A stretch of 64,000 nt of DNA. Source: the human T2T-CHM13v2.0 reference genome, Homo sapiens. Position 1 is the first letter of the stretch. The number at the start of each line of letters is the position of its first letter. Shown here in pieces: positions 14,200 through 63,625 of the stretch. Position numbers and translations under genes: made by a program. The notes beneath the pieces are model-generated. The model did not search any database and was not told the origin of the DNA. It was given only the letters and a program-made list of their open reading frames with translations. The stretch lies in the NCBI RefSeq assembly GCF_009914755.1, contig NC_060942.1. One strand, written 5' to 3'.

Positions 14200-14960
14200 A
14201 AAATCAGAAAATAATTAGAACTGTGAATCATAAAGTATCATGATAGTGTTAAAGTTGTCACATGCAAATAACATGGTACCAGAGAAGGAAATACATGTTT
14301 TTAAATGTTGTTATTAGAAAAGAAGAAATACCAACTAAGCATCTAATTCAAGAAGATAGATGAAGAACAGAGCAAAACCAAAGAAAGAAAAAAGGAAATA
14401 ATAAACATGAATAGAAATTTATTAACTAAACAGCACAGAAGCAATAACAAAGTTCAACAAAATAAAAAGCTGGTTTTGTGAAAAGGTTAATAACATGGAC
14501 CTCTGGCAACAGATCAGAAATAAATAGAGAAAAACCACATATAGCCAATAGCAGATTTTTTTTGTACTGCAATAGAATAATATGAATAACAATATATTTG
14601 ATGAATTAGGTAATTTTCTAGAAAAATATGACTTTCCAAAACTGACTCAAAAAGAAACAGAAATTCTGAGTAGATAATAATTATCTTAAACTCGAATTCT
14701 GGTTAAAAATTGACGCATGGAAATGTACCAGTGTATTTATAGGTACTAAATATTCAAGGAACAGATAATTCAAATGTTGTAAATGTTAAAAATATATAAC
14801 ATTTTATAAATATATAAAAATACATAAATTATATACATTTTATAAAAATTATTCTAAGAGAACAGAAAAGAAAACTTGTTCCCCCATTTCATTTTAAGAG
14901 GTTAGTATAACCTCAATATCAAAACCAGACAAGACTACAGTAAAAGGTAAAATTATAGGT
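14200..14960 (+). mobile_element. Old L1 (L1M) ORF2-derived fragment
   Basis: A-rich degenerate L1 sequence (aaagctggttttgtgaaaaggttaataa; aactgactcaaaaagaaacagaaa). Confidence 0.7.
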
Positions 14961-21437: not shown

Positions 21438-22217
21438 TTTTGTCTTTATTTTAGATTTAGGGGGCACATGGGCAGGTTTGTTAAATGGGTATATTTAGTG
21501 GTGCTGAGGTTAGGGCTTCTAATGATCCCATCAACCAAACAGTGAACATAGTCCCCAGTAGGTAGTTTTTAAACCCTTTCCCTCCTTCCTCTCTCCTCCC
21601 TTTTATATTCCCCAGTGTTTATTCCCATCTTTGTGCCGTGTATACCCAACGTTTAGCTCCCACTTACAAGTGAGAACATAGTATATTTGGTTTTGTTTCT
21701 GAGTTAATTCACTTAGGATAATGGCCTCCAGCTGTACCCATGTTGTACCAAAGGACATGATTTCATTCTTTTTCTTTTCTTTTTTTTTTTTTTGGTTTGG
21801 TTTTTTTTGTTTGTTTGTTTGTTTGTTTTGTTTTTTGAGATGGAGTCTCACTCTGTCACCCAGGCTGGAGTGCAGTGGCACGATCTTGGCTCACTGCAAC
21901 CTCCGCCTCCTGGGTTCAAGCAATTCTCTGCCTCAGCCTCCCAAGTAGCTGGGATTACAGGCACCCACCACTACGCCTGGCTAACTTTTTGTATTTTTAA
22001 TAGAGATGGGGTTTCACCATCTTGGCCAGGCTGGTCTTGAACTCCAGACCTTGTGATCCACCTGCCTTGGCCTCCCAAAGTGCTGGGATTACAGGTGTGA
22101 GCCACCCCACCCGGCCCGATTTCGTTTTTTATGGCTATGTAGAAAATGTGTATATACCACATTTTCTTTATCCAGCCTACCATTGATGGACACCTGGGTT
22201 GATTCCATGTCTTTGCT
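21438..22217 (-). mobile_element. L1 (L1PB-like) 3' segment interrupted by an Alu; TSD GAGGAAG(G/C)ATTTTA
   Basis: L1 3'UTR match (tttagctcccacttacaagtgagaacat); TSDs at 21424-21437 and 22218-22231. Confidence 0.88.
21770..22116 (-). mobile_element. Alu (AluS-like) nested in L1, antisense, (TTTG)n tail
   Basis: Full Alu dimer in reverse orientation. Confidence 0.93.
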
Positions 22218-22988
22218 GAGGAAGCATTTTAAATGGCAGGAGTGAGACAGTAACCACTTCAGCAGCATAAGGAAGGGAAAGCACAGGAAGGGGAGGAAAT
22301 GGCAAGATGGAGAAAGAGCTAGTGGCCTGCCTGATGCAGCTGATGAGGGAAGAACTCTGAGGCCGGGAAGCTAACTGCAGGCTTGTTGATGAGGATTTGA
22401 AATGTGTTTCTAGGAAGGAAGGAGAGGTAGCAAGTGGGCAGTGTGTGTGTTTGTTTGTTCACTTTAATGGAAGGCATTGAGGTAGTGAATCGTGTTCTAA
22501 TTGGTATTGAAAAGCAATCTTGGTGACCATTAAGAAAAGGCTGAGAAAGGCTATGGAAGAGTATGGAGACACGTTTAGGAGGTTAGAGCAAGGCTCTAGG
22601 TGAAAGATGATGTGGGCTTGAGTTTGGGCAGAGGTGTTGGGAGCTTATGAGGAGTATACAGTTTGGGTGTTATGGTGGGTAGGTGGTGCTGATAAGGAAG
22701 GAGGAGAACTTGAGAATGAACCAGGGTTTCTACCACTGTGACTTGGGTTGCTATAAAGGATATTAACCAAGAATGGGTATCTCTTTCCAGCCCACCCCCA
22801 CACCCCCAAATAAAAGTAGGTGTAAGGAGAGGCAATGTGTTTCATCTTGGACATGCTGAGTTTAAGCTGAATGAGCAATAATGTGGTGCTTTCCAGGAAG
22901 CTCAAGAGAGAGATGTGAGCTGAAGACACAGAAACAAACTATGAAATATTAGCGTCCCCCTTTATTCACAAGCATCTACTGTGTGTTA

Positions 22989-23608
<620 letters not shown>

Positions 23609-33400: not shown

Positions 33401-35097
33401 ACCCTCCCTAAGAAGTTAATAATAGGATCTCATATTATGCATGAGAAAACAGGCTCGGGGTGGAAGTCATGGAAGTCACCTGCCGCATGAGAAGACTGAG
33501 GCTCAGGGGGTGTAAGTCACTTGCTGCAACATCACAAGGTAGATGGAAAAAAAATCCATGTGCATCTTACTCCATCACACTGAGACCAGAGCAATCTGTG
33601 TTCTCAGGATATTTAAATGAGTAATATTTTATTCCTGTGAGACCTCTAAACCAAAAGGTTTGGGGATACAATAAATCTGTTATCTTGGAAACAAAGCTGG
33701 CAGCTGCTCTTGGCTGGGCTCTATGTGGTAGCTGTGCTTCATGGCAGTGTTTTTGCTCTCACTATCCAATATCCATCCACCCTCTTCTCAGCGGGCCCAA
33801 ACACAACTATTAATAGAAGTATGGATACTCGGTTTGGATATCTCTTTCAAAACAAAGAAGAGTCTCTTAAAAACTCTTGAGAAATCAAAACTTGTAACTG
33901 CCTTATTCTTTTTCATCCCTTCTTCCCCTTTAAAGTTGTATTTATTGGATCACATTATGGTGCCCCCAACTTAAGAGCTAACAAGTACATTTCTTAGTCC
34001 TTCTTCATCATGGGTTTCTTAGCAAAATGAGTACTCATGCGCATGCACATAAACACACCTTCAGTTCTGCCCAGACTCCTTCCTGTGGATGGGGAGAGTT
34101 GCTGACACAGGAGTCAGAGTAGAAACGCAGCAGCTTGTGCTAATGGAAAAAGGAGGATGATGGTTTCAGAGCATGCATTCTGCTCTCCTGCCCACCCCTC
34201 CACCCGTCTCCAGTTCTGCCCCCAAAAAGGCAGCTGAAGTCATTTCAAGGCTTCCTACTTTGTTTCTGTTCCAGAGGCCAAGCCTCCTGGTAAGACTGAG
34301 GAAAGCGTAAAGCACCTTGAGTTCCATCCTCCCAAAGGGCCCTGTAGCTGGAGTCAGAGCCTGCGTTTCAGCCTCTCCTTCACCACCATCTAATTTATTG
34401 CCTTGAGCAAGCCACTTGCACTCCCTAGGCCTGCCTGTTGCTTCTTCCTTCCAGAGCACGAGGAAATACAAGGAATGAAAAGGATCGAGACCAGCCTGGC
34501 CCTTGCTAGGTCTCTTCTGGGCAAATCACATGCTCTTCCATCCACTAAGTGAGGCCACAGATGTCAGAATGCAGCCATCCAGTGTGTCCAGTTCAAAGTA
34601 GAAACTGCTCGGTGGATGGGAGTTGCAATGATCTTGAAAATTAGTGTTTGGAAATTGACTGTCTCTGAGATTCCTCGCAGCTATATTTGATTTGAATCCC
34701 CTTCCCCAAAACCACCTATTGTGTTGGGAGTTAATCAAACCACACTGATAGGCAAATGGACATGCCAATCTCTCTCTCCCTCTCTCCCTCTCTCTCCTCT
34801 TGTCAGATAAGGTTTGAGGGAGAGAGGAATCAGCAGGGGTTCCCCCTAGCTGTCCCTCCACCATCATAAGCCATGCACAATTGTCAGTACTCACCTCTGC
34901 CCTCCTCCTTCTCCGGGACACCCTGCCTCCTCTCTCCAGGCCTCCATGGGCTCCTTGGCCTCTGAATTCCTGTAGACATCTAGAGTCCAGATCACAAAAC
35001 AATCACTTAATAGTCGGAATTTTCATTTGTTCAATTTCCATTTTTGGATAAACTGGGCACATGGCTAAATGTTTTCATCACATTGTATCAATTAATC

Positions 35098-35290
35098 CAG
35101 TGGTTCCCAAATGTATCTACACTTCAGAATGGCCTGGGGAGAGGGGGGCTTCAATAAACTACTGATACCTCTGTCCCACCCCAGAAATTATGATTTAATT
35201 AGAGTATGGCCTGGGCTGTAGAATTTGTTAAGACCTCCCTCCCCCCAGCTAAGTGATTCTAATGTGCAGGCAAATTTGGGAACTGCTGAC
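35098..35290. mobile_element. MER5A-like DNA transposon
   Basis: cagtggttcccaaa...gtgattctaatgtgcag...tttgggaactgctg terminal inverted ends. Confidence 0.7.
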
Positions 35291-35857
35291 TTCTTAGAAC
35301 TCTCTGCCATAGGACTTATAATCATGTCCTATTTACAGATGAAGCTCCTGCAGTTGAGCAAACTCCAGTGAGCCCCTCAAGCTCACGTCCACACTGCGTG
35401 AGAGCCAGCACTCCAGCCTGGCAAGACTGCAGCTGTGCTGTCTCAATCCTTGCTACCCACAGTGTGGTCCAGAGACCACAGCATCACCTGGGAGCTTGTT
35501 CAAAGCGCACATTTTCAGGCCCCACAAAGTCAGACCTACCGAATTTATTCAGAATCCCTCCAAGGGAGTCTCATGCCTGCTTCACTTTGATAACGGCTGC
35601 TGTAGTCATGTCAAATGCCCTGAAGGTTACAGTCATGTGCTGGCAGCCTCGGGAGCCACAGCTCTGGCCCCTAGCCATCCTCTGACTTTAATTTACCTGA
35701 GTATTATCTGGGCTGCTGGTTTAAAATGACCCACCTCAAAGATCTTTTTTCAGGAAGTTAGAAATCCTGGAGTTATAGCGTTTCTGTGCTGTTTCGTGTT
35801 TGTGAGTTTTAAAGCCAATAAGGATCACCCCTTTGGAGCAGGGACCACACATCTATT

Positions 35858-35876
35858 CCTGCCGCCCTCTGGCAGT
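35858..35876 (-). promoter_or_regulatory. CTCF motif
   Basis: Reverse complement ACTGCCAGAGGGCGGCAGG matches the CTCF core; a weaker opposite-orientation match GAGCAGGTGGCAG follows at ~35880-35892. Confidence 0.6.
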
Positions 35877-35989
35877 AATGAGCAGGTGGCAGGGCTCGGG
35901 ACTGTTAGCCTGATTGATGGCCTGGTGGAACCACCACCAGGGCACTAAGGTAATTAGACGATCTGTTTCTGGACCTTGCTTTCTGGGCT

Positions 35990-36900
35990 GGAGGCTGCCG
36001 CCTTACGTGATTAGGATGCGTGGGAGGCGCCGCCTCTCCTAGAAGCTGTGCAGGTAGCGCTGGGCTGCAGGAGGCAGCCAAGCCAGGCGCACGATCAGAG
36101 CAGGGACGCCTCCCGTTCCTTGGTTCCTGGGCTCCAACGGGCACCTCCAAACCAATAGTTCCAGCATCTCTGTATGCAGACCTTAGAGGACAGGAAGCGA
36201 CTGCGAGCCCCACACTCTCCAGACACGGAAACTCTAAATGCAGAGAGAACGAAGCATATTTTGTCTTCCTTTTCCTTTTTTTTTTTAAGCAAAATAATAA
36301 CTTGACACAAGTCCAAGTAGTTAAAAAGATACTAAAAGAAACCCAATTTAGAAGGGCTTTTAGTAGGCTGAAAACAGATGTGGCAAACCATTTCGGGATA
36401 TTCTGGGAGATGAGATGGGGAGGACCGGATTCGAAATGCCTGGGCCGCCTGTTCTGGGCCCGCCCCGCCAGGTGCCTGTGCTCGGGAGGGGCCTTGCCCA
36501 GCACGCATTCTAGAAGGAAGCGGCCCCGCGCCTCCTCCCTCGCAATTACCGCCGGGTCGGAGGCATCCGGGCGGTGCGAAGTCAGCACCGTGCCGAGCAG
36601 TTGAGAGCAGACGGTGTTTTCTTTTCATTGTTCCCTCGCTTCGCTGGGAGAGCGGCGGCACCTGTTCCGCGGAAGCGCGGCCAAAGTTGGAAGCCCTGGC
36701 GGCTGCTGCCTGCAGCCGACGCGCGGGGGCGCCCGGCTTCATCCGGCCGCGGGGGACCAGGAGCCTGAGAGCCTGGAACTGGGTGCGGGGGGACAGCCAG
36801 CCCGAGAGGGCCCAGGGTCGGATTTCGGATGGAACCAGAGCTCGCTCCAGGGAGTTGAAGGAGTTGGGAGCGCATCTCCCAATAATCCCAAAGAAACCGA
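35990..36900. promoter_or_regulatory. Intragenic CpG island / probable bidirectional promoter
   Basis: Dense undepleted CpG in non-repeat sequence; GC box CCCGCCCC (36459-36466); palindromic ETS/STAT-like TTCCGCGGAA (36665-36674). Confidence 0.85.
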
Positions 36901-36908
36901 GCTTTCAG

Positions 36909-36980
36909 TGCATGCAAGGGGCATTTGATTTCCCTCATTTCTGAGCACTGAAGCACTCCACTGTCATATTTTTGAAATTC
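36909..36980 (+). repeat. Left arm of a perfect 72-bp long-range inverted repeat
   Basis: Exact reverse complement of 39372-39443, checked base by base; flanking bases mismatch on both sides. Confidence 0.97.
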
Positions 36981-38822
36981 GAGAACAAGGAGGTTAAAGA
37001 GTCTAAATGGAAGACTAGGTGACCATCCAAAATATCATACATCAATTGCATCTTGTAATTAGTAAAATCATTTTTATTACTTAAGGTAAATCTTGATAAG
37101 GTGTTTTTATTAGGTAAGATAAACCTGGTATAACATACGTTGCGGGTGTGTGTGTTTTGTTCAGTTGTCATTTTCAGAGAAATAAATGAATTTTTAAAGT
37201 GTATATTTATTCATCAATAATTATTTTTAAAGTGTGCCTGTATACCATATATGTAGTTTTATATCTATCCCACTACCTTCTGCTTGCATAACTGAAGTCA
37301 CAAAAAGGTAAAAACTAATCCCCCAATATACAGAAGAATCTAGTATGTCCCATAAAAGCATCTTTGCTAACTGGCATCGTGAAAGTATGGTGCTGGACAC
37401 TCTTGAAATGAAATCATTGTTACTGTCAAATTAGACATCTCCACAAATATACATGATCTGCTCAAACTGACTTTACATCTGGGAAAGGAGAAATTGTAGG
37501 TCTCTCTTACTCTGGGATATTTTTGATAGAGCAAAGGTATCCATGATGTAAATTTCTGAGATATTATAGATAAGCCCTTTATAAAGTCACAAATAATATT
37601 CCCATAATGAGGGGGGAAAAGATTCCAAAGAAGGCTGAGCACTTACTGAGGGCAGGGACCATCATTGTCTCCTGCTTTACAGTATCTGCAACTCCTAGCA
37701 TATCTGGTTTACGTCTTGCCAACTAAAGGTAATGAGGCTTCCCTGGAAGGGCACTGAATCCATGGCCAGAAAGTTTCACAAGGAGGCAGCTGAAATAACC
37801 AGCCACATAGCTCATGGGGGAACATCAGTGCACCTCAGGGGGTTGGCATTCTGGGAGAGGTCCTCTCAGCTCAGATTTCTTTTGTAAACTTTCCCAGTCT
37901 GGGACTTTCCTTCCTACACTGATCCTATGACTCTGCATAAAATTCAGTTTTATATGTATACATTGCATATTTAGTGCACACAGGACACAGCGATCAGGTG
38001 TTGCAGGGTTTGCAGAAATAAGCAAAACAACACCCTTTATGTGCTGGCCAGGAATAAGTTTACAGTCAAACAGTGCAAGAAGGGCATCATACCAGGGTCA
38101 GAACAAGCATGTTTCATCAGGGCAGCAAAAAGAGCTCACATCTATGGAGGAGTCTTTGAAGGAGTGCAGCGTGTGAGATGTACTTTAAAGAATGCAAAAA
38201 ATCTTCAACTGGGAAGAAATGGATGGGAGGAGAATATTCTGAACAGAAGGAATGGTGCGAGTAGGAGTTTGGATCATGGGGTATGTTTGGGGAACAGGGC
38301 AAACACTTGTCCTTGAACATAAAATATATGTGCATAGAAAAGAGAGCTATAAAAGATAAGGCTGGAAATGCTGGTTGGGGCCATATTTAAAAACTCGTTC
38401 TTACCTGCCTGGCCAAATAATTTGTATTTAGTTTCAGAAAGTAGTTAGAAATAGGAGATTCTTGAGCAGAACAAGTAAATAGCACTGGGATTACACATTG
38501 AGAGAGTTTTTGTGGTATTGGGACACATAGAATGCCCATGCAGGAAGACAGTAGAGCCTGAATTTAGGATTGTGGCAGAGGGATTAAGAAGTTGGAAAAT
38601 ACACTTTGAGAGCTGCTTCAAAGACACTCCTAGCCTTGGCAAATGGTTGGGTTTGCGAGAAGGAATGGGTTGGTTAAGGGAATCATAGCAGTCACATAGG
38701 AAGTCAGGAAGAGCGCAGTGACTGTGGGGCAAAGAATTCTCTTTTAGACTTATGGTCTTTGAGGTGCTGGCAGGACCTCCAAGGGAAGATGCTCACAGAA
38801 GAAGTTAGAAATCAAATTCAGA

Positions 38823-39132
38823 AGGTTGGGCACAGCGGCCCATGCCTGTAACCTCAACACTTTTCGAGGCCAAGGCAGGAGGATCGCTTGAGGCCAGGAG
38901 TTCAAGACCTGGCAGCATAGCAAGACCCCATTGCTATAAAAAATAAAAGATTAGCTGGGCATGGTGACATGTGCTTGTAGTCCTAGTTACTTGGGAGGCT
39001 GAGGAGGGAAGATCGCTTGAGCCCAAGGATTCAAGATTATAGTGGGCTGCGATCACGCCACTGCACTCCAGCCTAGATGGCAGAGCAAGACCCTGTCTCT
39101 AAAAAAGAAAACAAAACAAAAACAAATAAAAA
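38823..39132 (+). mobile_element. Alu (AluJ-like), inside the inverted-repeat spacer
   Basis: ggatcgcttgaggccaggagttcaagacc; A-rich tail. Confidence 0.88.
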
Positions 39133-39371
39133 ACATTAAATTCAGCACATGGAGAAACAGGGCTAGAGTTACAGAATAGAAATTCATCCATGGAGGGGCA
39201 GGGACAGGAATAGATGAAAATGCCAGGAATCCTGGGGAGGCAGAAGAGGCCAAGGACAGAGCTTTGAGGTGGTCACGTGTTCCTGCCCAGCCTCTGGTCC
39301 TGCTCTCCTCTCGTTGATGTCTAGAAAAACATTCTTACCAAAAAAAAAAAAAAAAATACAATTTGCTAGGA

Positions 39372-39443
39372 GAATTTCAAAAATATGACAGTGGAGTGCT
39401 TCAGTGCTCAGAAATGAGGGAAATCAAATGCCCCTTGCATGCA
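39372..39443 (-). repeat. Right arm of a perfect 72-bp long-range inverted repeat
   Basis: Exact reverse complement of 36909-36980; spacer 2391 bp. Confidence 0.97.
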
Positions 39444-40039
39444 AAATTCTTCCACCTGAGATTAGTTAGAGGCTTCAGACAATATGGAAAGACAATTTCA
39501 GATTTTAGGAAGTTTTGTTTATTGAATTTATTTATACTAAAATGAATCTGTAGTTCTAATTTGGGAAAATGACTTAGCTACTTCCTTCAGAAAAAATATA
39601 ATTCTAATCTTTAGTGTTCAATCTGATTTTCTGCCCACTCCTCCTAAAAAGTTTTCAATCACTTTCTGAAACTAGAAATAATTCAAAAGAAGAGCTAAAA
39701 TATTGCAAACTTCCTTCACAGTTTATTTTTGCAGGCCGTTCTCTGAGTAGAGATGCACAGGAAATGAATGGTTACAGTAACTGGGATGTTTGTGGTAAAA
39801 ATACAATTTTTTAAACTTAGACCATTTTTCCAGGTTTTACGTCTCCCATAACTCAAATATTGTTTTCTTCTGAGAAGAATAAAAACACAGGTGATCTACA
39901 AAAAATAGACCTTCCTCTTGAGTATACAATTAACTTTTGTGTGCAAATTTTGTCCTATAAATCATAGTGTGACCCATCATGGGAGGAACTCCAAAAAAAC
40001 CAAACTGTAAACCCATAATTTCTTTTATGTTTTCTAAAG

Positions 40040-40156
40040 GTCAAATGCTGCAAATACTGGCCAGATGACACAGAGATATATAAAGACATTAAAGTTACCC
40101 TAATAGAAACAGAACTACTGGCAGAATATGTGATAAGAACATTTGCTGTTGAAAAG
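40040..40156 (+). CDS. PTPRM: PTPRM coding exon, D1 ([39 protein letters not shown])
   Basis: ttttctaaag acceptor, AAG|gtaagt donor; 117 nt, phase 0-0; KCxxYWP motif. Not in the supplied ORF track; found by reading the sequence. Confidence 0.97.
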
Positions 40157-41207
40157 GTAAGTTTTCATACTGCTTTTAAAAGCTATGGTCAGACACTAGT
40201 GGTACCATACTAGCCTCATTAACTTACCTAGGATACTTTACACATGCTCATATCTCAATGCAGGTAGGCTCTATCTGATGGTTTCTCAAGATTGCATCTT
40301 GCTCTCTGATTCTATAACAGCTCAGTTCCATCTTTAAAACAAATCATTCTCATTTCATAAGAATCTATATTTTGCAAGTAAACCAAAAGTTAATGTCTAT
40401 TTGTTTATTTTCTTTCCCTGGTTGATATTGTTCTGCCCGTCTCTCTTTCTTTGTTCACAGAACAAAGTTTGCTAAATTTTGATAAATGTCCTTCCAGTTT
40501 GGTAAATTTCCTTCATGGTGTATGTCGATATGCATTTTCCAGTAGGGAGTTAGTATCAGTGTTGAGACACAGGTCCTAACTCCTCCTGGAATCTCTCACT
40601 TCCTTGTGGCTTTCGAAACCTCTGGTTTAATGTGGACTGATGGATTTTCCAGGTGGAAGTGACCTACCTGGAAACCTAAGTGACTGATCTCCATCAGACA
40701 TGGGACACTCTTGCATGAACCAGCGCATTCATTCATGCTCACTCCCATACTGGTTTTCCCCTTTTGTAGTTGCTGGTGTTGGGTCGGTGAATGTTCTGCT
40801 TTGGTTCTGCCCTGCCTCATCCCATGTGCATGGATGGGGCTTCTTCTCTGGGATGCACTGTAGGGCATAACAGGGAATTTCCTTATTCCCCCTCTTTCTG
40901 CTGACATAGGGAGGGGCCGGAGGTGAAGCAAACTGCAGTCCATCCAGAGAAGTGTCACAGGTAGGCTCTGGGGAAAGTGGAGGTGATGTGGCTGAGGAAC
41001 ACTCTGCCTTCCAAAGATCCACAGACTTTTCTATCCAGAGTTGATTCTCCATAACCGAGCCCTGCACAGCTGCCCTGGACTTAGGGATCTTGGTGTGAAT
41101 TTGTTAGCTTCTACTCATGTAATAGTAGCAGGTCTTCTTGGAAGACCTGGGTTATAGGCAGATTGCTAGGGAATTGGATTTTGGCCTTCCTCTCCACTCT
41201 ATATTCT

Positions 41208-41523
<316 letters not shown>

Positions 41524-57829: not shown

Positions 57830-58176
<347 letters not shown>

Positions 58177-59796
58177 CTATTTTTATTTCTCTTCAATCCA
58201 GATCCAACCTCTGATCAGAACAAGAGGCTCACGCTGAGATGATACAATCCCAGCAAAGAATATTAACATTGTAGTTCGTTTGTATTAGATATATCAGATT
58301 TTTCTAAAATACTAAAAATAGGTTGCAGTTACCCCTGCCTGCATCTGGAGACCCCCAGCGTCTGGAGCTAGATGTATAATGCATCGCTCCCCCCGGGATT
58401 AGCAGCTTTCTAAAAAGGGTCAGTGCTTTAACCCACAGGACTAAGTTACTAGTGACTCGAAGAAGTTGAGGCACCAGGACAGGCCTAACAAGAAGACATA
58501 AAGACTTCTTAAATCACTGCACCTTGTCAACAACACACTTCCCAGAGGCAGCTGTGACCACAGAACTAACCAGTGACATTGCTGTTCCATGTAAAACCTA
58601 AAGCAATCAGCCGTTCTTCACAGTGGACGGTGGGAGGCATCCGTTGTTTCTTCTCTCCTGCCTGTGCAGCATCTCTTCCCATTTTCCACTGAGAGAACCT
58701 TGATTATTCTTTGGAATACTCCCCCCTCCCTAAAGCCCCGCCTCTGTTCATGTGGGGCTGTCTCTTGCTCTCTTAGCATCAAGGTGGGCATGAGACCTAG
58801 GCCTGGTGAGAATGTTTATTTTTGTTTACATTTATATATCTAAATCTAAGGCTTTTTTTAGCTATAAGAAACAAAGTTAGTTTACATTGGCATCCCCCAG
58901 TACTGGCCAGGAAAGAATCAAACCACTCCAGTCTTCCTCTTGGAGGTAAGAGCATGGCATTCAGCATAGTGTAGCGCCACCTAACGGCTGTGGGTGGAGA
59001 GTTCCCGGCTGAGACAAGACCTGCCGGTGCTTTGAAGTGAATGGTTCCTTGAGCCACAGATATTCAAGGTAGGCAAATAGAGAGTGTTTTTCTTTATATG
59101 TGTCTCCCAGCTAATAAAGCTAGATTAAATGGATAGAATTAAGATTTCACCACTTTGCAACTCTTGATGAAAATAATAGATTAGACAGTGGTCTTCAACA
59201 GCTGCCGAAAGTATTAGGTGCAAAGCTGATAGGAAAAGCGGTGTAATGGTAAGGCAAGGATAGAAAACAGCTAATCTTCTAATTAGCAGAAGAGACAGTC
59301 CAGGGACAGATCCGTACCTCAGCGTCATCTGACTTACAACAAAGATGCCATTGCAACGCAGCACTGCAGTGGGTGGGGAAGACTGCCTGGACACGTTGGT
59401 CTCCCTCACTCCATGTACAGAATCCCTTCTAGATAGATGGTAGACCAAAAGGGGAAAGTAAAATAACAAAGCTTCTAGAAGAAAACATAGGAGAATATCT
59501 TCACGACCGCGGGTAGATTTGTTAAACAGGACACAGAACAATAGCCTTAAAAGAAATATTGACAACGTGGACTTTCATTAAAATTGAGCCCTTCTCTTCA
59601 TCAAAAGATGGCAATAAGAGGGTGAAGAAGCAAGGCAGTGGGAGGAGACTTTTATAATACATGTGTCTGACAAAGGACTCGGCCACAATGTCGAAGAACT
59701 GCTGTACTGCAAGCCAGTAGGAAAATGATAGACAACTCAATTTATTAAATGGGCAAAAAACTTGACAGGTACTTCACTGAAGACAAAAGATGTCCC

Positions 59797-60167
<371 letters not shown>

Positions 60168-61492
60168 TCATTTTTAGGCAAATCCACATTGAAACCAGGA
60201 TCACATGCCACTGTGTACTCACCAGAATGGCTGAAATTTTAAAGACAGACAAATAAATGATAATCCCAAGTGTTAGTGAAGCTGTGGAGTAACTGGAACT
60301 CTTATACACTGTAGGAAGGAAGTAAATACTGTACAACCATTTGGAAACTGACAGCATTTACCAAAGCTAAACATATACGCAGTCTGAGGCTGAGCTCTTC
60401 TGTTCTTAGAGAAATGACTGCAGAAATGAATCATCTACCAAAAGATAAGCTTATCACAGGTTTACTCATAATATTTAAAAACTGGAAACAGCCCAAACAT
60501 TCATCAGCTGTTGGATAAATTGTACAGTGGGTATTCATTCAGTGGAATTCTTCTTAGCAATATAAAACAATAAACTACCAATATAACACCGTGGGTGATT
60601 CTCACACAGACAACACAGAGTGAAATAAGCCAGTCTCAGAAGAAGACATAGTGTATGGTTCATTTACACAAAGCTGAAAAACAGGCAAAAACAATTGATG
60701 ATGCTAGGCTTAAGAATGGATTCTCTTTGGTGATACTGATGGTATTGTTGAGGAAGGAACGTGAGGGAGCCTCTTGGGGACTGAACGTGGTTTGTATCTT
60801 GATCTGAATGGTGGTTACATGGTGTATGCATTGGTAAAAATTGACTGAGCTGTCTACTTACGGTCTTTATTGTAGGTATATTATACTTTAGTTAAAAAAC
60901 TGATTCAGAATTTCATAATGGGCTGATCAAGCTGATATCCGAACACGATGATCTCTCTTAAAACCATAAAACAAGGGACAACCAGATATTTTTGGCTTGC
61001 TTCCTAATGAAAGTATACTTTAAGTATCCTTGTATAAATAAATCAATCTTGAATTCTTACCAAGCCCTGGAACTACCTACCGATTTACAGGAAATACAGA
61101 GTTAGAAAGCAGCATATTAAATAATATCACAGAGATGTGATGAATGAGAAAAATCTAGGATGTGGGACTCTCTACAGGACACAGATGAACTTGTTTCCTC
61201 AACAAATAAATTCTCAAGAAAAAAGAGAGAGCAAAGAGGAACTCACAGAGTAAAATAAATTTGCAAGACATACCAACCAAATCCAATCTGTGGACTTTGC
61301 CTAGATGTGGATTTTTTAAAAAGCATCTGTAAGAAACAATCTGAGAGTGGATTTTTTAAAAAAGCAGCTGTAAGAAACAATCTGGGAAACTGGAACACTG
61401 ACTAGAAATTTGATAATTTTAAAACAGTAATGTTATTATTTTAGGTATGATAGTTATACTGTGTACTGTGTTTAAAAATAAAAAGGTCCCAT

Positions 61493-61997
<505 letters not shown>

Positions 61998-62909
61998 TTA
62001 GCTGATAGAATAAAATTATTATGTATAAGCTCACACTGAAATAAACAAATCATAAAATAAATAAACAATAATAGGGAAGAAGAGACAGCTCTTTCTTAGT
62101 GTAGAATGTTGAAAGAGAGGGAAACAGGAAATCACCATTAGGCAAACACCACAGTGATAATTAATTGTTGCAGACAAGATCCACCAACGGATGCTCAAAT
62201 CAGTGGGCGAGAAACAAAATATTTGCGTAGTCCCAAAATATCTTCCTCCCAGATATTTATTGACTGCAAAGAGAAAGATGATAACTTTATGGTGAGAAAA
62301 TCTGGCAGACACCATCTTAACAAGTGAGCAAGTTAACATCACCAGTAATAAGACAGATGGACATCCTGAACCCCTGGGAGGAGGGAACATCCCCTCTCTG
62401 GTTTTCTTACCGAAATGCACGGCCTTGTTTCCAGTCATGAGAAGACATCAGACAAACCCAAATGAAGGGATGGTCTACATGTTATAGTTTGTGATGACTT
62501 CTCAGATTGCGGCTGGGGACGACAGCTACTTTCTACTTCTGTGTTCTACATTCTTTATATTCTACAAATCACTGATCAGTGCTCTTCAAAAGTGTCAAGG
62601 TCAGGAAATACAAGGAAAGACTGAAGGAAACTAAGGAGACAGGACAACTACATGCACGACTGGATCCTGGACCAGAAAAAGGACATTCGTGGAGGAACTA
62701 GTGAGATGTGACTACAGTCTGTGGTTTAGTTAATAGTATTGTCCCAGCATCACGTTCTTGGTTTGCATAATGCGCTGTGGGCAAGTAAGGTGTTCATATC
62801 AGGGAAGTTGGATATGCATTCTCTATGCTATTTTTACATTTCTGCACATCTAACATGGGTTCATAGTAAAAAGTTTTCTTTAAAAAGAGCCTCTATGTTT
62901 TATAGATAA

Positions 62910-63240
<331 letters not shown>

Positions 63241-63625
63241 TGCTAATGGATGTTTTTAAAGGCCAGATACGTCTTTGAACGTAACCCGTACTTGTCACAG
63301 CAATTTTCCTGGCAGAACCTAAATAAGGTTCATTGAAAATTTTCTACCATGGGCCCTTATCGATGAATTGCTGTATCAGAGAATGTGACCAGGGCTGAGG
63401 TGAGCTGGGAAAGGCTCTGCAGTCAGGTGACCTGTGGCCAAACACTGCGGATGGCTTGCTCTGTTTGCTTTAATTAAAAGAATCTGCCCAGGTAAGAGGT
63501 CCCCCGGCCTCAGAGCCCTTTGTTGTTACTGTTCCCCAGGGTTTAGACAGCTTGTTTCCACAGGTGTTTGCAAGATGCAGTGTAAAGACAGACCGAGTGC
63601 AGTCATCTGATCTTTTTCACGACAG

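What the first reader, a model, noticed from the sequence alone, without database searches (positions are those of the whole stretch)
36909..39443. Perfect 72-bp inverted repeat of apparently unique sequence, 2.4 kb apart, between the CpG island and a D1 exon
Seen: 36909-36980 (TGCATGCAAGGGGCATTTG...TTTTTGAAATTC) is the exact reverse complement of 39372-39443, 72/72, with sharp mismatching ends. I do not recognise it as any repeat family. It has no TSD, and the 2391-bp spacer holds old AluJ and L2-like relics, so these are not decayed transposon TIRs. The left arm abuts the CpG island; the right arm ends ~600 nt upstream of the 40040 acceptor. Both arms carry the palindrome TGCATGCA at their outer end, so the RBFOX motif UGCAUG is present on the sense strand in both. 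The right arm is framed by a short imperfect inverted pair (GGAGAATTT / AAATTCTTCC), reminiscent of template switching. Inference: it is either (a) a recent templated inverted duplication, (b) a pair homogenised by gene conversion that may support inversion of the spacer, or (c) a selected 72-bp pre-mRNA duplex (RNA bridge or ADAR substrate) that loops out 2.4 kb of PTPRM intron.
Basis: partly seen in the sequence, partly recalled or inferred. Interest (0 to 1): 0.85.

Follow-up and report, generated by a model that had tools for sequence, protein, structure and literature searches.

The report
Short inverted duplication scar in PTPRM intron
A 72-base stretch beside a CpG island in a PTPRM intron was copied backwards into a tiny palindrome 2.4 kb away, most likely by a DNA copying slip, which is a known and ordinary kind of human structural change.

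Summary
Positions 36909-36980 and 39372-39443 are 72/72 reverse complements with 2,391 nt between them. The ends are sharp, and these are the only two copies in the T2T genome.

The flanks show no diverged homology. There is no target-site duplication and no transposase reading frame, so it is neither a transposon nor a converted tract of an older repeat.

One feature points to an origin. The six bases after the right arm (AAATTC) equal the last six of the left arm. Without 39378-39443, the right site would be a perfect 7+7 palindrome. That geometry occurs at 18 of 63,854 window positions.

My best reading (about 0.55) is a templated inverted insertion of 66 nt, primed on 6 nt of microhomology. 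The left arm is the source and the right arm is the copy. This matches the known "inverted duplication" class of human variants, in which stretches under 1 kb are inserted within 5 kb of the original.

The main rival (about 0.2) is a 2.4-kb inversion made by staggered breaks.

Perfect identity only limits the age to roughly 20-50 million years or less, so neither gene conversion nor selection is needed to explain it.

A 72-bp pre-mRNA duplex is possible, but it is probably incidental. No outgroup or pangenome data could be reached.

The parts
36909..36980 (+). Left arm. Inferred to be the source copy. It directly follows the CpG-rich block 36401-36908.
   Evidence: It is a 72/72 reverse complement of 39372-39443. 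It is one of only 2 genome matches. It contains no CpG.
36975..36980 (+). AAATTC at the inner end of the left arm. Inferred to be the 6-nt microhomology where the switching 3' end annealed, or from which it returned.
   Evidence: It is identical to 39444-39449, the first six bases beyond the right arm, and complementary to 39372-39377.
36981..39371 (.). The 2,391-nt spacer. It is unique intronic sequence apart from one Alu, and it holds no annotated exon.
   Evidence: The parts tested are unique in the genome. The longest stop-to-stop frame wholly inside it is 115 aa, and 13 frames scanned against Pfam gave no family with E below 0.1.
38824..39137 (+). Alu element with an A-rich tail, flanked by its own target-site duplication (38814-38823 and 39138-39147, 9 of 10 identical).
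   Evidence: Rfam Metazoa_SRP, mir-1268 and mir-3135 matches, all below the gathering score. The duplication was read.
39340..39356 (+). An uninterrupted run of 17 A, ending 15 nt before the right arm. It is a possible site of polymerase stalling.
   Evidence: Read. Any role in the event is inference only.
39369..39377 (+). Left half of the short quasi-palindrome at the insertion site (GGAGAATTT). Its last six bases are also the first six of the right arm.
   Evidence: It pairs with 39444-39453: 7 perfect pairs, a 1-nt bulge, then 2 more pairs.
39372..39443 (-). Right arm. Inferred to be the derived copy.
   Evidence: It is a 72/72 reverse complement of the left arm. It is the second of 2 genome matches.
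39378..39443 (-). The 66 nt inferred to be newly synthesised (the templated insertion proper).
   Evidence: Taking these out would put the 7+7 palindrome together. The same geometry gives an arm of 7 or more at 18 of 63,854 window positions. Five other 'remove one copy' tests gave an arm of 0.
39444..39453 (+). Right half of the quasi-palindrome (AAATTCTTCC). It is the outer flank of the right arm.

Best explanation
This is the scar of one DNA-level mutation: a templated inverted insertion, also called a local inverted duplication.

Inferred sequence of events:
1. The right-hand site originally carried a short AT-rich palindrome. Its halves were AGAATTT and AAATTCT, each with a few more pairing bases outside.
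2. During replication or break repair, a 3' end stopped at the centre of that palindrome.
3. The end paired through six bases (GAATTT with AAATTC) with the same strand 2.4 kb upstream, at 36975-36980.
4. It copied 66 nt, as far as the TGCATGCA at 36909, and then rejoined its own site without microhomology.
5. The mirror order, with a blunt first jump and a 6-nt homology on the return, gives the same product.

The '72-bp repeat' is therefore 66 new bases plus 6 that were already there. The left arm is the source and the right arm is the copy.

Shown: the structure, the two-copy status, the sharp ends, and the palindrome with its microhomology.

Inferred: the order of events, which arm is the copy, neutrality, and the age.

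Consequences are by-products. PTPRM pre-mRNA can form a perfect 72-bp duplex that loops out 2.4 kb of a 27.4-kb intron, and such a duplex is a plausible ADAR target. The arms could occasionally support inversion of the spacer.
For: Structure:
- 72/72 identity with sharp ends.
- Only 2 copies in the genome, and the tested flanks are unique.
- No diverged homology around the arms.
- No target-site duplication, no long reading frame and no Pfam domain in the spacer.

Insertion-site evidence:
- The first six bases after the right arm are the reverse complement of the arm's first six. A frame of 6 or more occurs at 54 of 63,900 window positions, and the three other junction comparisons gave 0, 0 and 1.
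- Without 39378-39443 the site is a perfect 7+7 palindrome with 2 more pairs after a bulge. That occurs at 18 of 63,854 positions, or 4 of 63,854 with the extension. The seventh pair and the extension lie outside the arm. Five alternative removals gave an arm of 0.

Literature (passages read):
- The described signature of an MMBIR templated insertion is an insertion near to, and inverted with respect to, its template, with junctional microhomology. Such insertions were seen as germline variants, some of them in quasi-palindromes (PMC8421209).

Age: with 144 CpG-free bases and assumed rates of 0.4-1.0e-9 per site per year, zero differences are compatible at the 95% level with ages up to 21-52 million years.
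Against: - No outgroup or second human assembly could be examined, so which arm is derived, and the event itself, are inferred from one haplotype.
- The palindrome argument was built after seeing the data. Six removal tests were run, and other kinds of coincidence would also have caught my eye.
- Only one junction shows microhomology. The other is blunt.
- A GC-gradient test points the other way. With the spacer flipped, GC would fall smoothly from the CpG island into the AT-rich intron. The statistic is 0.23-0.33, reached by 0.25-0.8% of window positions. However, 2-4 other independent loci in the same 64 kb reach it too, and the composition change sits about 46 nt before the right arm rather than at it.
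- The published tools for short template switches look only within 100-250 bp. A 2.4-kb jump is outside what they document, although it is inside the 5-kb range.
Confidence: 0.55

Rival explanations
1. The repeat is the footprint of a 2.4-kb inversion made by staggered breaks. The ancestor had one copy of the 72-mer next to the spacer in the opposite orientation. Paired single-strand nicks on either side of the 72-mer, plus a break at the far end, were filled in and rejoined. This flipped the spacer and left the 72-mer at both ends in inverted orientation.
For: The anatomy fits the model of Ranz et al. 2007 (PMC1885836, passages). In that study 17 of 29 Drosophila inversions carried inverted duplications of non-repetitive sequence at the breakpoints. 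In 12 of those 17 the duplicated sequence came from only one breakpoint region, and the shortest duplication was 46 bp.

The GC profile would be smoother with the spacer flipped. The present order gives flank GC of 0.67, 0.29, 0.44 and 0.29 at f=243, and the statistic lies in the top 0.25-0.8% of window positions.

Human non-homologous inversions often carry small insertions or deletions at their breakpoints (PMC6748972; bioRxiv 10.1101/2021.12.20.472354).
Against: This model gives no reason for the 7+7 palindrome and the 6-nt match at the right arm (18 of 63,854 positions). I worked through the junctions by hand from the flanks and found no usable microhomology for replicative versions of this model.

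The GC statistic is reached by 2-4 unrelated loci in the same window. Strand skews of the spacer are unremarkable, at the 19th and 88th percentiles.

In the human survey, inverted duplications outnumber simple inversions, 54% to 20%.
Confidence: 0.2
2. It is the same kind of templated inverted copy, but with the opposite polarity: the right arm is original and the left arm, beside the CpG island, is the copy.
For: The 72/72 identity itself is symmetrical and does not say which arm is derived.
Against: Removing the left arm, whole or keeping either six terminal bases, gives no palindrome or microhomology (arm 0 in 3 of 3 tests). The right arm sits in a 7+7 palindrome whose pairing continues into unique flank.
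Confidence: 0.07
3. It is an older inverted repeat kept identical by gene conversion, acting as a substrate for recurrent inversion of the spacer by homologous recombination.
For: Perfect identity. A lenient 50-bp cut-off for breakpoint homology has been used in human inversion surveys. Microinversions between human and chimpanzee are flanked by inverted repeats of 3-75 nt (PMC8755829), though those inversions are only 17-33 nt long.
Against: There is no diverged homology beyond the 72 bp at word size 7, so no older repeat exists to be converted.

The inverted repeats behind the recurrent human inversions studied were 654 bp to 24.2 kb.

Zero differences are expected by chance for tens of millions of years, so homogenisation is not needed.
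Confidence: 0.04
4. It is a selected RNA structure. The 72-bp duplex in PTPRM pre-mRNA is kept because it bridges the intron, recruits ADAR or presents RBFOX sites, and so tunes splicing of the exon at 40040.
For: Both arms lie in one intron (12654-40039) on the sense strand. The predicted duplex energy is -135.8 kcal/mol, against -7.2 and -11.5 for the arms alone. Its 72 contiguous pairs exceed the median of 30-31 for edited human dsRNAs (PMC11838218).
Against: Exact DNA identity with no G-U pair and sharp ends at a microhomology is the mark of copying, not of selection for pairing.

No annotated exon lies in the loop (hub table). UGCAUG inside a duplex is not available to a single-strand binder (established knowledge). 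TGCATG is not enriched in the window (20 found, 14.7 expected).

Conserved human dsRNAs were reported to be the least stable class, with shorter contiguous pairing.
Confidence: 0.05
5. It is an assembly artefact, or a transposon with terminal inverted repeats.
For: None found.
Against: Against a transposon: no target-site duplication, a single copy in the genome, and no reading frame above 115 aa and no Pfam domain in the spacer.

Against an artefact: both arms lie in unique sequence 2.4 kb apart, well inside one long read. That is an inference, because the reads were not available.
Confidence: 0.02

Closest known systems
'Inverted Dup' class of human structural variants (Sudmant et al. 2015, PMC4617611; passages read)
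   Same: A short stretch (under 1 kb; here 72 bp) is present a second time in inverted orientation within 5 kb of the original (here 2.4 kb). There are no retrotransposition marks. The class is ascribed to replication errors.
   Different: Those variants were called as polymorphisms against a reference. Here only one haplotype was seen, so the derived state and the frequency are unknown. At 72 bp this is near the lower size limit of what such surveys call.
MMBIR templated insertions, MMB-TI (Osia et al. 2021, PMC8421209; passages read), and short-range template-switch mutations (Loytynoja 2022, PMC9435742)
   Same: The insertion is an inverted copy of a nearby template. Microhomology is present at a junction. 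The site is a quasi-palindrome. The length, 66-72 nt, is within the reported range (longest 90-318 bp).
   Different: The template is 2.4 kb away, whereas those methods search within 100 bp or 250 bp. Only one of the two junctions shows microhomology.
Staggered-break inversions with inverted breakpoint duplications (Ranz et al. 2007, PMC1885836; passages read)
   Same: A non-repetitive sequence is duplicated in inverted orientation at the two ends of a segment. The duplication size is within the reported range (46 bp to about 1.9 kb).
   Different: Those inversions are chromosome-scale events in Drosophila, shown by comparison with outgroups. Here the inversion of the spacer is untested, and the palindrome at the right arm is not explained by this model.
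Non-repetitive intramolecular dsRNAs of the human transcriptome (dsRNAscan preprint, PMC11838218; passages read)
   Same: Two non-repeat intronic arms have a loop of about 2 kb. About 0.5 million such predictions were reported, 4,597 of them edited.
   Different: This one is perfect over 72 bp, against medians of 14 (unedited) and 30 (edited) contiguous pairs. Whether it is in their tables could not be checked, because the supplements were closed.

Membership tests
Local inverted duplication ('Inverted Dup', Sudmant 2015) | The duplicated stretch is shorter than 1 kb. | tested here: met
   72 bp.
Local inverted duplication ('Inverted Dup', Sudmant 2015) | The second copy is inverted and lies within 5 kb of the first. 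| tested here: met
   2,391 nt lie between the arms, which are in opposite orientation.
Local inverted duplication ('Inverted Dup', Sudmant 2015) | It is not a retrotransposition product. | tested here: met
   There is no target-site duplication and no poly-A tail on the copy. The 72-mer has only 2 copies in the genome.
Local inverted duplication ('Inverted Dup', Sudmant 2015) | An ancestral or alternative allele lacks one copy. | not testable with these tools
   No primate or second human assembly could be reached. A 28-mer of the arm was absent from genome contigs and viral contigs.
MMBIR / template-switch templated insertion | There is microhomology between the insertion site and the edge of the template. 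| tested here: met
   6 nt at one junction, a geometry seen at 54 of 63,900 window positions. The site is a 7+7 palindrome (18 of 63,854). The other junction has 0 nt.
MMBIR / template-switch templated insertion | The template lies close by (within 100-250 bp in the published detection methods). | tested here: not met
   The template is 2.4 kb away. The limits are those of the methods.
Staggered-break inversion (Ranz 2007) | An inverted duplication of non-repetitive sequence lies at both ends of a segment. | tested here: met
Staggered-break inversion (Ranz 2007) | The segment between the copies is inverted relative to the ancestor. | tested here: inconclusive
   The GC-gradient statistic favours a flipped spacer, but 2-4 unrelated loci in the window reach it. 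Strand skews are uninformative. No outgroup was available.
DNA transposon with terminal inverted repeats | Target-site duplication, multiple copies, or a transposase gene or its relic. | tested here: not met
   The outer flanks are unrelated. The genome holds 2 matches, both of them the arms. The longest frame wholly inside the spacer is 115 aa, and Pfam gave no family with E below 0.1 for 13 frames.
Recurrent inversion by homologous recombination between inverted repeats | Inverted repeats of several hundred bases or more at over 90% identity. | tested here: not met
   Only 72 bp, with no further homology. The studied set had repeats of 654 bp to 24.2 kb.
Recurrent inversion by homologous recombination between inverted repeats | Both orientations are found among haplotypes. 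| not testable with these tools
   Only one assembly is held (one search states that the genome has no relatives here).
Functional long-range intronic RNA duplex / ADAR substrate | Both arms are on one transcript and can pair. | tested here: met
   Both arms lie in the intron 12654-40039 on the sense strand (hub table). The duplex energy is -135.8 kcal/mol.
Functional long-range intronic RNA duplex / ADAR substrate | Conservation with compensating changes, A-to-I editing, or duplex-mapping reads. | not testable with these tools
   No alignments, editing tables or duplex data were available.
Functional long-range intronic RNA duplex / ADAR substrate | The loop or its neighbourhood holds a regulated exon. 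| tested here: not met
   No annotated exon lies between 36981 and 39371 (hub table). The nearest exon, at 40040, is in the selected transcript.

The most novel reading that the evidence does not exclude
The pair may be more than a scar, in either of two ways. First, the perfect 72-bp duplex in PTPRM pre-mRNA could be heavily edited or processed and so affect use of the phosphatase-domain exon 596 nt downstream. Second, the arms could let the 2.4-kb segment beside the CpG-island promoter flip between orientations in some human haplotypes, moving promoter-proximal sequence.
Probability: 0.06. Interest if true: 0.6.

Novelty: new member of a known kind. Interest (0 to 1): 0.25.

Why it matters
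Taken alone it matters little. It is one more example of a common class of small structural change. It lies deep in an intron and has no demonstrated effect.

It is still a clean single-locus illustration of how a short AT-rich palindrome can capture an inverted copy from 2.4 kb away. That distance is well beyond the 100-250 bp that current template-switch detectors search. This suggests that such detectors miss a longer-range tail of the same process.

It also shows that a perfect 72-bp inverted repeat of unique sequence does not call for gene conversion or selection. For CpG-free sequence, zero differences are expected for tens of millions of years.

If the duplex forms in the transcript, it would be a convenient natural substrate for studying editing of a perfect non-repeat dsRNA.

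Tried and rejected
- Repeat family: the 72-mer and three flanking stretches each matched only themselves in the genome.
- Paralogous copies to test whether an old repeat runs across a junction: a sensitive blastn of five flank and spacer pieces against the window gave only poly-A matches and one weak hit (37147-37268 against 14524-14649, 63.6%, E 0.004). The test could not be made.
- Known RNA families: 5 matches at E up to 1, all below the gathering score. Four are Alu-derived and none touches the arms.
- Transposon: rejected.
- Strand skews as a sign of an inverted spacer: uninformative.
- GC gradient as the same kind of sign: suggestive but not specific.
- Outgroup or other haplotypes by exact 28-mer scan: 0 matches in genome contigs and 0 in viral contigs.
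- Hairpin at the right site as it now stands: the minimum-energy DNA fold of 39355-39465 contains the framing stem, but at -7.3 kcal/mol it is no better than shuffles (182 of 200 fold at least as well). The present allele is therefore not a notable hairpin.
- Literature on this locus. 'PTPRM' with 'inversion' or 'inverted repeat' (at least 2 of the 3 terms): none of the 15 papers listed, out of 4,445 matching, mentions PTPRM. 'PTPRM' + 'inversion' + 'structural variant': 11 papers, 10 listed, and judging by titles and abstract openings none concerns this site. 'LOC100192426': 1 paper, a lung-cancer marker screen, seen in the listing only.
- The passages on 'staggered' in PMC3961182 concern restriction enzymes and are irrelevant.
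Published inversion, inverted-duplication or dsRNA tables may list this site without my being able to see it.
- The second inverted pair in the region (38422-38451 and 39652-39681, 30 nt, 77%) rests on a seed of about 12 nt, which is roughly what chance gives in 5.5 kb. I set it aside on my own estimate.
Full report
**The observation.** Window 36909-36980 is the perfect reverse complement of 39372-39443, 72 of 72, with 2,391 nt between the arms. The ends are sharp. In the 40 positions beyond the arms on the outside 9 match, and on the inside 10 match, which is what chance gives. A blastn with 7-base words between the left half (34900-38150) and the right half (38151-41500) finds the 72/72 match at E 2e-25. 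The next best hit, at E 0.012, is a low-complexity T/A run elsewhere. Both outer ends carry TGCATGCA, so TGCATG is on the + strand at 36909 and 39436. The left arm follows a CpG-rich block, 36401-36908, with GC 0.66 and CpG observed/expected 0.82. The right arm ends 596 nt before the exon at 40040, which translates as [10 protein letters not shown].... That this is a phosphatase-domain motif is my recollection.

**It is not a dispersed repeat.** In the whole 3.1-Gb assembly the 72-mer matches only these two places (2 candidates, 2 scored). The stretches 36981-37700, 39444-40039 and 39106-39371 each match only themselves. Rfam gives five sub-threshold matches in 35500-41000. Four are Alu-derived and none touches the arms. 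Across the window there are 12 inverted pairs within 10 kb. The other 11 are 80-92% complementary and fall in stretches listed as masked repeats.

**It is not a transposon.** The outer flanks share nothing. The longest stop-to-stop frame wholly inside the spacer is 115 aa. Thirteen frames scanned against Pfam gave no family with E below 0.1. The spacer does contain one Alu, at 38824-39137, with its own target-site duplication (9 of 10 identical).

**What perfect identity means.** The arms contain no CpG. With 144 bases at risk and assumed neutral rates of 0.4-1.0e-9 per site per year (my assumption), the chance of no difference stays above 5% for 21-52 million years. The median waiting time to the first difference is 5-12 million years. 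'Perfect' therefore means 'within primate history'. It does not have to mean recent in human terms, and neither gene conversion nor selection is needed. Conversion is further disfavoured because no older, diverged repeat surrounds the 72 bp.

**The informative detail.** Measured properly, the six bases just beyond the right arm (39444-39449, AAATTC) are the reverse complement of the arm's first six (39372-39377). They are therefore identical to the last six bases of the left arm (36975-36980). For a 72-nt segment placed anywhere in the window, such a frame of 6 or more occurs at 54 of 63,900 positions. The three other junction comparisons at this locus give 0, 0 and 1.

If 39378-39443 (66 nt) is taken out, the site becomes a perfect 7+7 palindrome, 39371-39377 against 39444-39450, with two more pairs after a one-base bulge. 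The seventh pair and the extension lie in unique flank outside the arm. With the same 66-nt gap, an arm of 7 or more occurs at 18 of 63,854 positions, and with the extension at 4 of 63,854. Five other ways of removing one copy give an arm of 0. The window as it stands holds 29 zero-spacer palindromes with arms of 7 or more, so such sites are ordinary.

**Mechanism I commit to (confidence 0.55).**
1. The right site was a short AT-rich palindrome.
2. A growing 3' end stalled or broke at its centre. A run of 17 A lies 15 nt away, at 39340-39356, and may have contributed.
3. The end paired by six bases with the same strand at 36975-36980 and copied 66 nt, up to the palindromic octamer at 36909.
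4. It then rejoined its own site without homology. The mirror order of events gives the same product.

The left arm is therefore the source and the right arm the copy, and the '72 bp' is 66 new bases plus 6 that were already there. The structure and the statistics are shown. The order of events, the polarity and the neutrality are inferred.

**Comparison with what is known.**
- In the 1000 Genomes structural-variant map, 229 inversion-type sites were validated and 54% were inverted duplications. 'In nearly all cases' these were stretches under 1 kb inserted within 5 kb of the other copy. They were not typically tied to retrotransposition and were attributed to replication errors (PMC4617611, passages). 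This locus meets those criteria.
- The published signature of MMBIR templated insertions is an insertion close to, and inverted with respect to, its template, with junctional microhomology. They were found as germline variants, some in quasi-palindromes (PMC8421209, passages).
- Short-range template-switch events reach 90-318 bp (PMC9435742, passages).
- The difference here is the 2.4-kb distance, beyond the 100-250 bp those methods search, and microhomology at only one junction.

**The main rival (0.2).** Inverted duplications of unique sequence at the two ends of a segment are also the hallmark of inversions made by staggered breaks. This was seen in 17 of 29 Drosophila inversions. In 12 of those 17 the duplication came from one breakpoint region only, and the shortest was 46 bp (PMC1885836, passages).

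One test favours this rival. With flank windows of 150-500 nt, flipping the spacer would make GC fall smoothly from the island into the intron. The statistic is 0.23-0.33 and is reached by 0.25-0.8% of window positions. However, 2-4 unrelated loci in the same 64 kb reach it. The difference between the two ends of the spacer alone is exceeded at 7-10% of positions. The composition change sits about 46 nt before the right arm. Strand skews are uninformative. This model does not explain the palindrome and the 6-nt match, and I found no usable microhomology for replicative versions of it when I worked through the junctions by hand.

**RNA reading.** Both arms lie in the 27.4-kb intron 12654-40039 on the sense strand. 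The duplex energy is -135.8 kcal/mol, against -7.2 and -11.5 for each arm alone. A survey of predicted human dsRNAs reports about half a million non-repetitive ones, 4,597 of them edited. The median contiguous pairing is 14 (unedited) and 30 (edited), and loops of about 2 kb are typical. Conserved dsRNAs were the least stable class (PMC11838218, passages). The duplex is therefore a plausible ADAR target.

Nothing points to selection. There is no exon in the loop. UGCAUG would be sequestered in the duplex. TGCATG is not enriched in the window (20 found, 14.7 expected). Exact DNA identity ending at a microhomology is the signature of copying.

**Limits.**
- No other primate or human assembly could be reached. 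The assembly has no relatives in the tool, and a 28-mer of the arm is absent from the two sequence collections I could scan.
- Three literature searches on the locus returned nothing relevant in what I could see.

**Verdict.** This is a real, statistically unmistakable structure with an ordinary explanation. It is a new example of a known kind of mutation, with an unusually legible insertion site. Interest is low to moderate.

Noticed in passing
window 40712 and 40827: Two TGCATG motifs lie 83-198 nt upstream of the 51-nt alternative exon 40910-40960 ('exons of other transcripts' in the hub table). This is a more conventional place for RBFOX-type regulation than the arms of the repeat.
   Followed up: no
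window 36401-36908: A CpG-rich block (GC 0.66, CpG observed/expected 0.82, 45 CpG) lies 220-720 nt upstream of the annotated start of the minus-strand lncRNA LOC100192426 (36184) and overlaps the RefSeq enhancer feature. On the + strand, donor-like sites follow within 200 nt of the left arm (TTAAG|GTAAAT near 37087 and TTAG|GTAAGA near 37115, read). An unannotated sense transcript starting here is conceivable.
   Followed up: no
window 39340-39356: An uninterrupted run of 17 A ends 15 nt before the right arm. Such a pure tract is likely to vary in length and may be a site of polymerase stalling.
   Followed up: no
window 38814-39147: The Alu in the spacer has a clear target-site duplication (AAATTCAGAA and AAATTCAGCA), which shows it is an intact, ordinary insertion lying wholly inside the spacer. 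Part of it scores as mir-1268 (51.7 bits against a gathering score of 83), which is Alu-derived.
   Followed up: partly
window 57835-63242 and 21826-23367: Clusters of inverted Alu pairs (87-92% over 90-203 nt) lie within single PTPRM introns. These are far longer potential dsRNA than the 72-mer.
   Followed up: no
window 36909-36916 and 39436-39443: The copied segment ends exactly at an 8-nt palindrome, TGCATGCA (3 in the window against 0.9 expected, and two of the three are these arms). My model does not explain why copying stopped there.
   Followed up: partly
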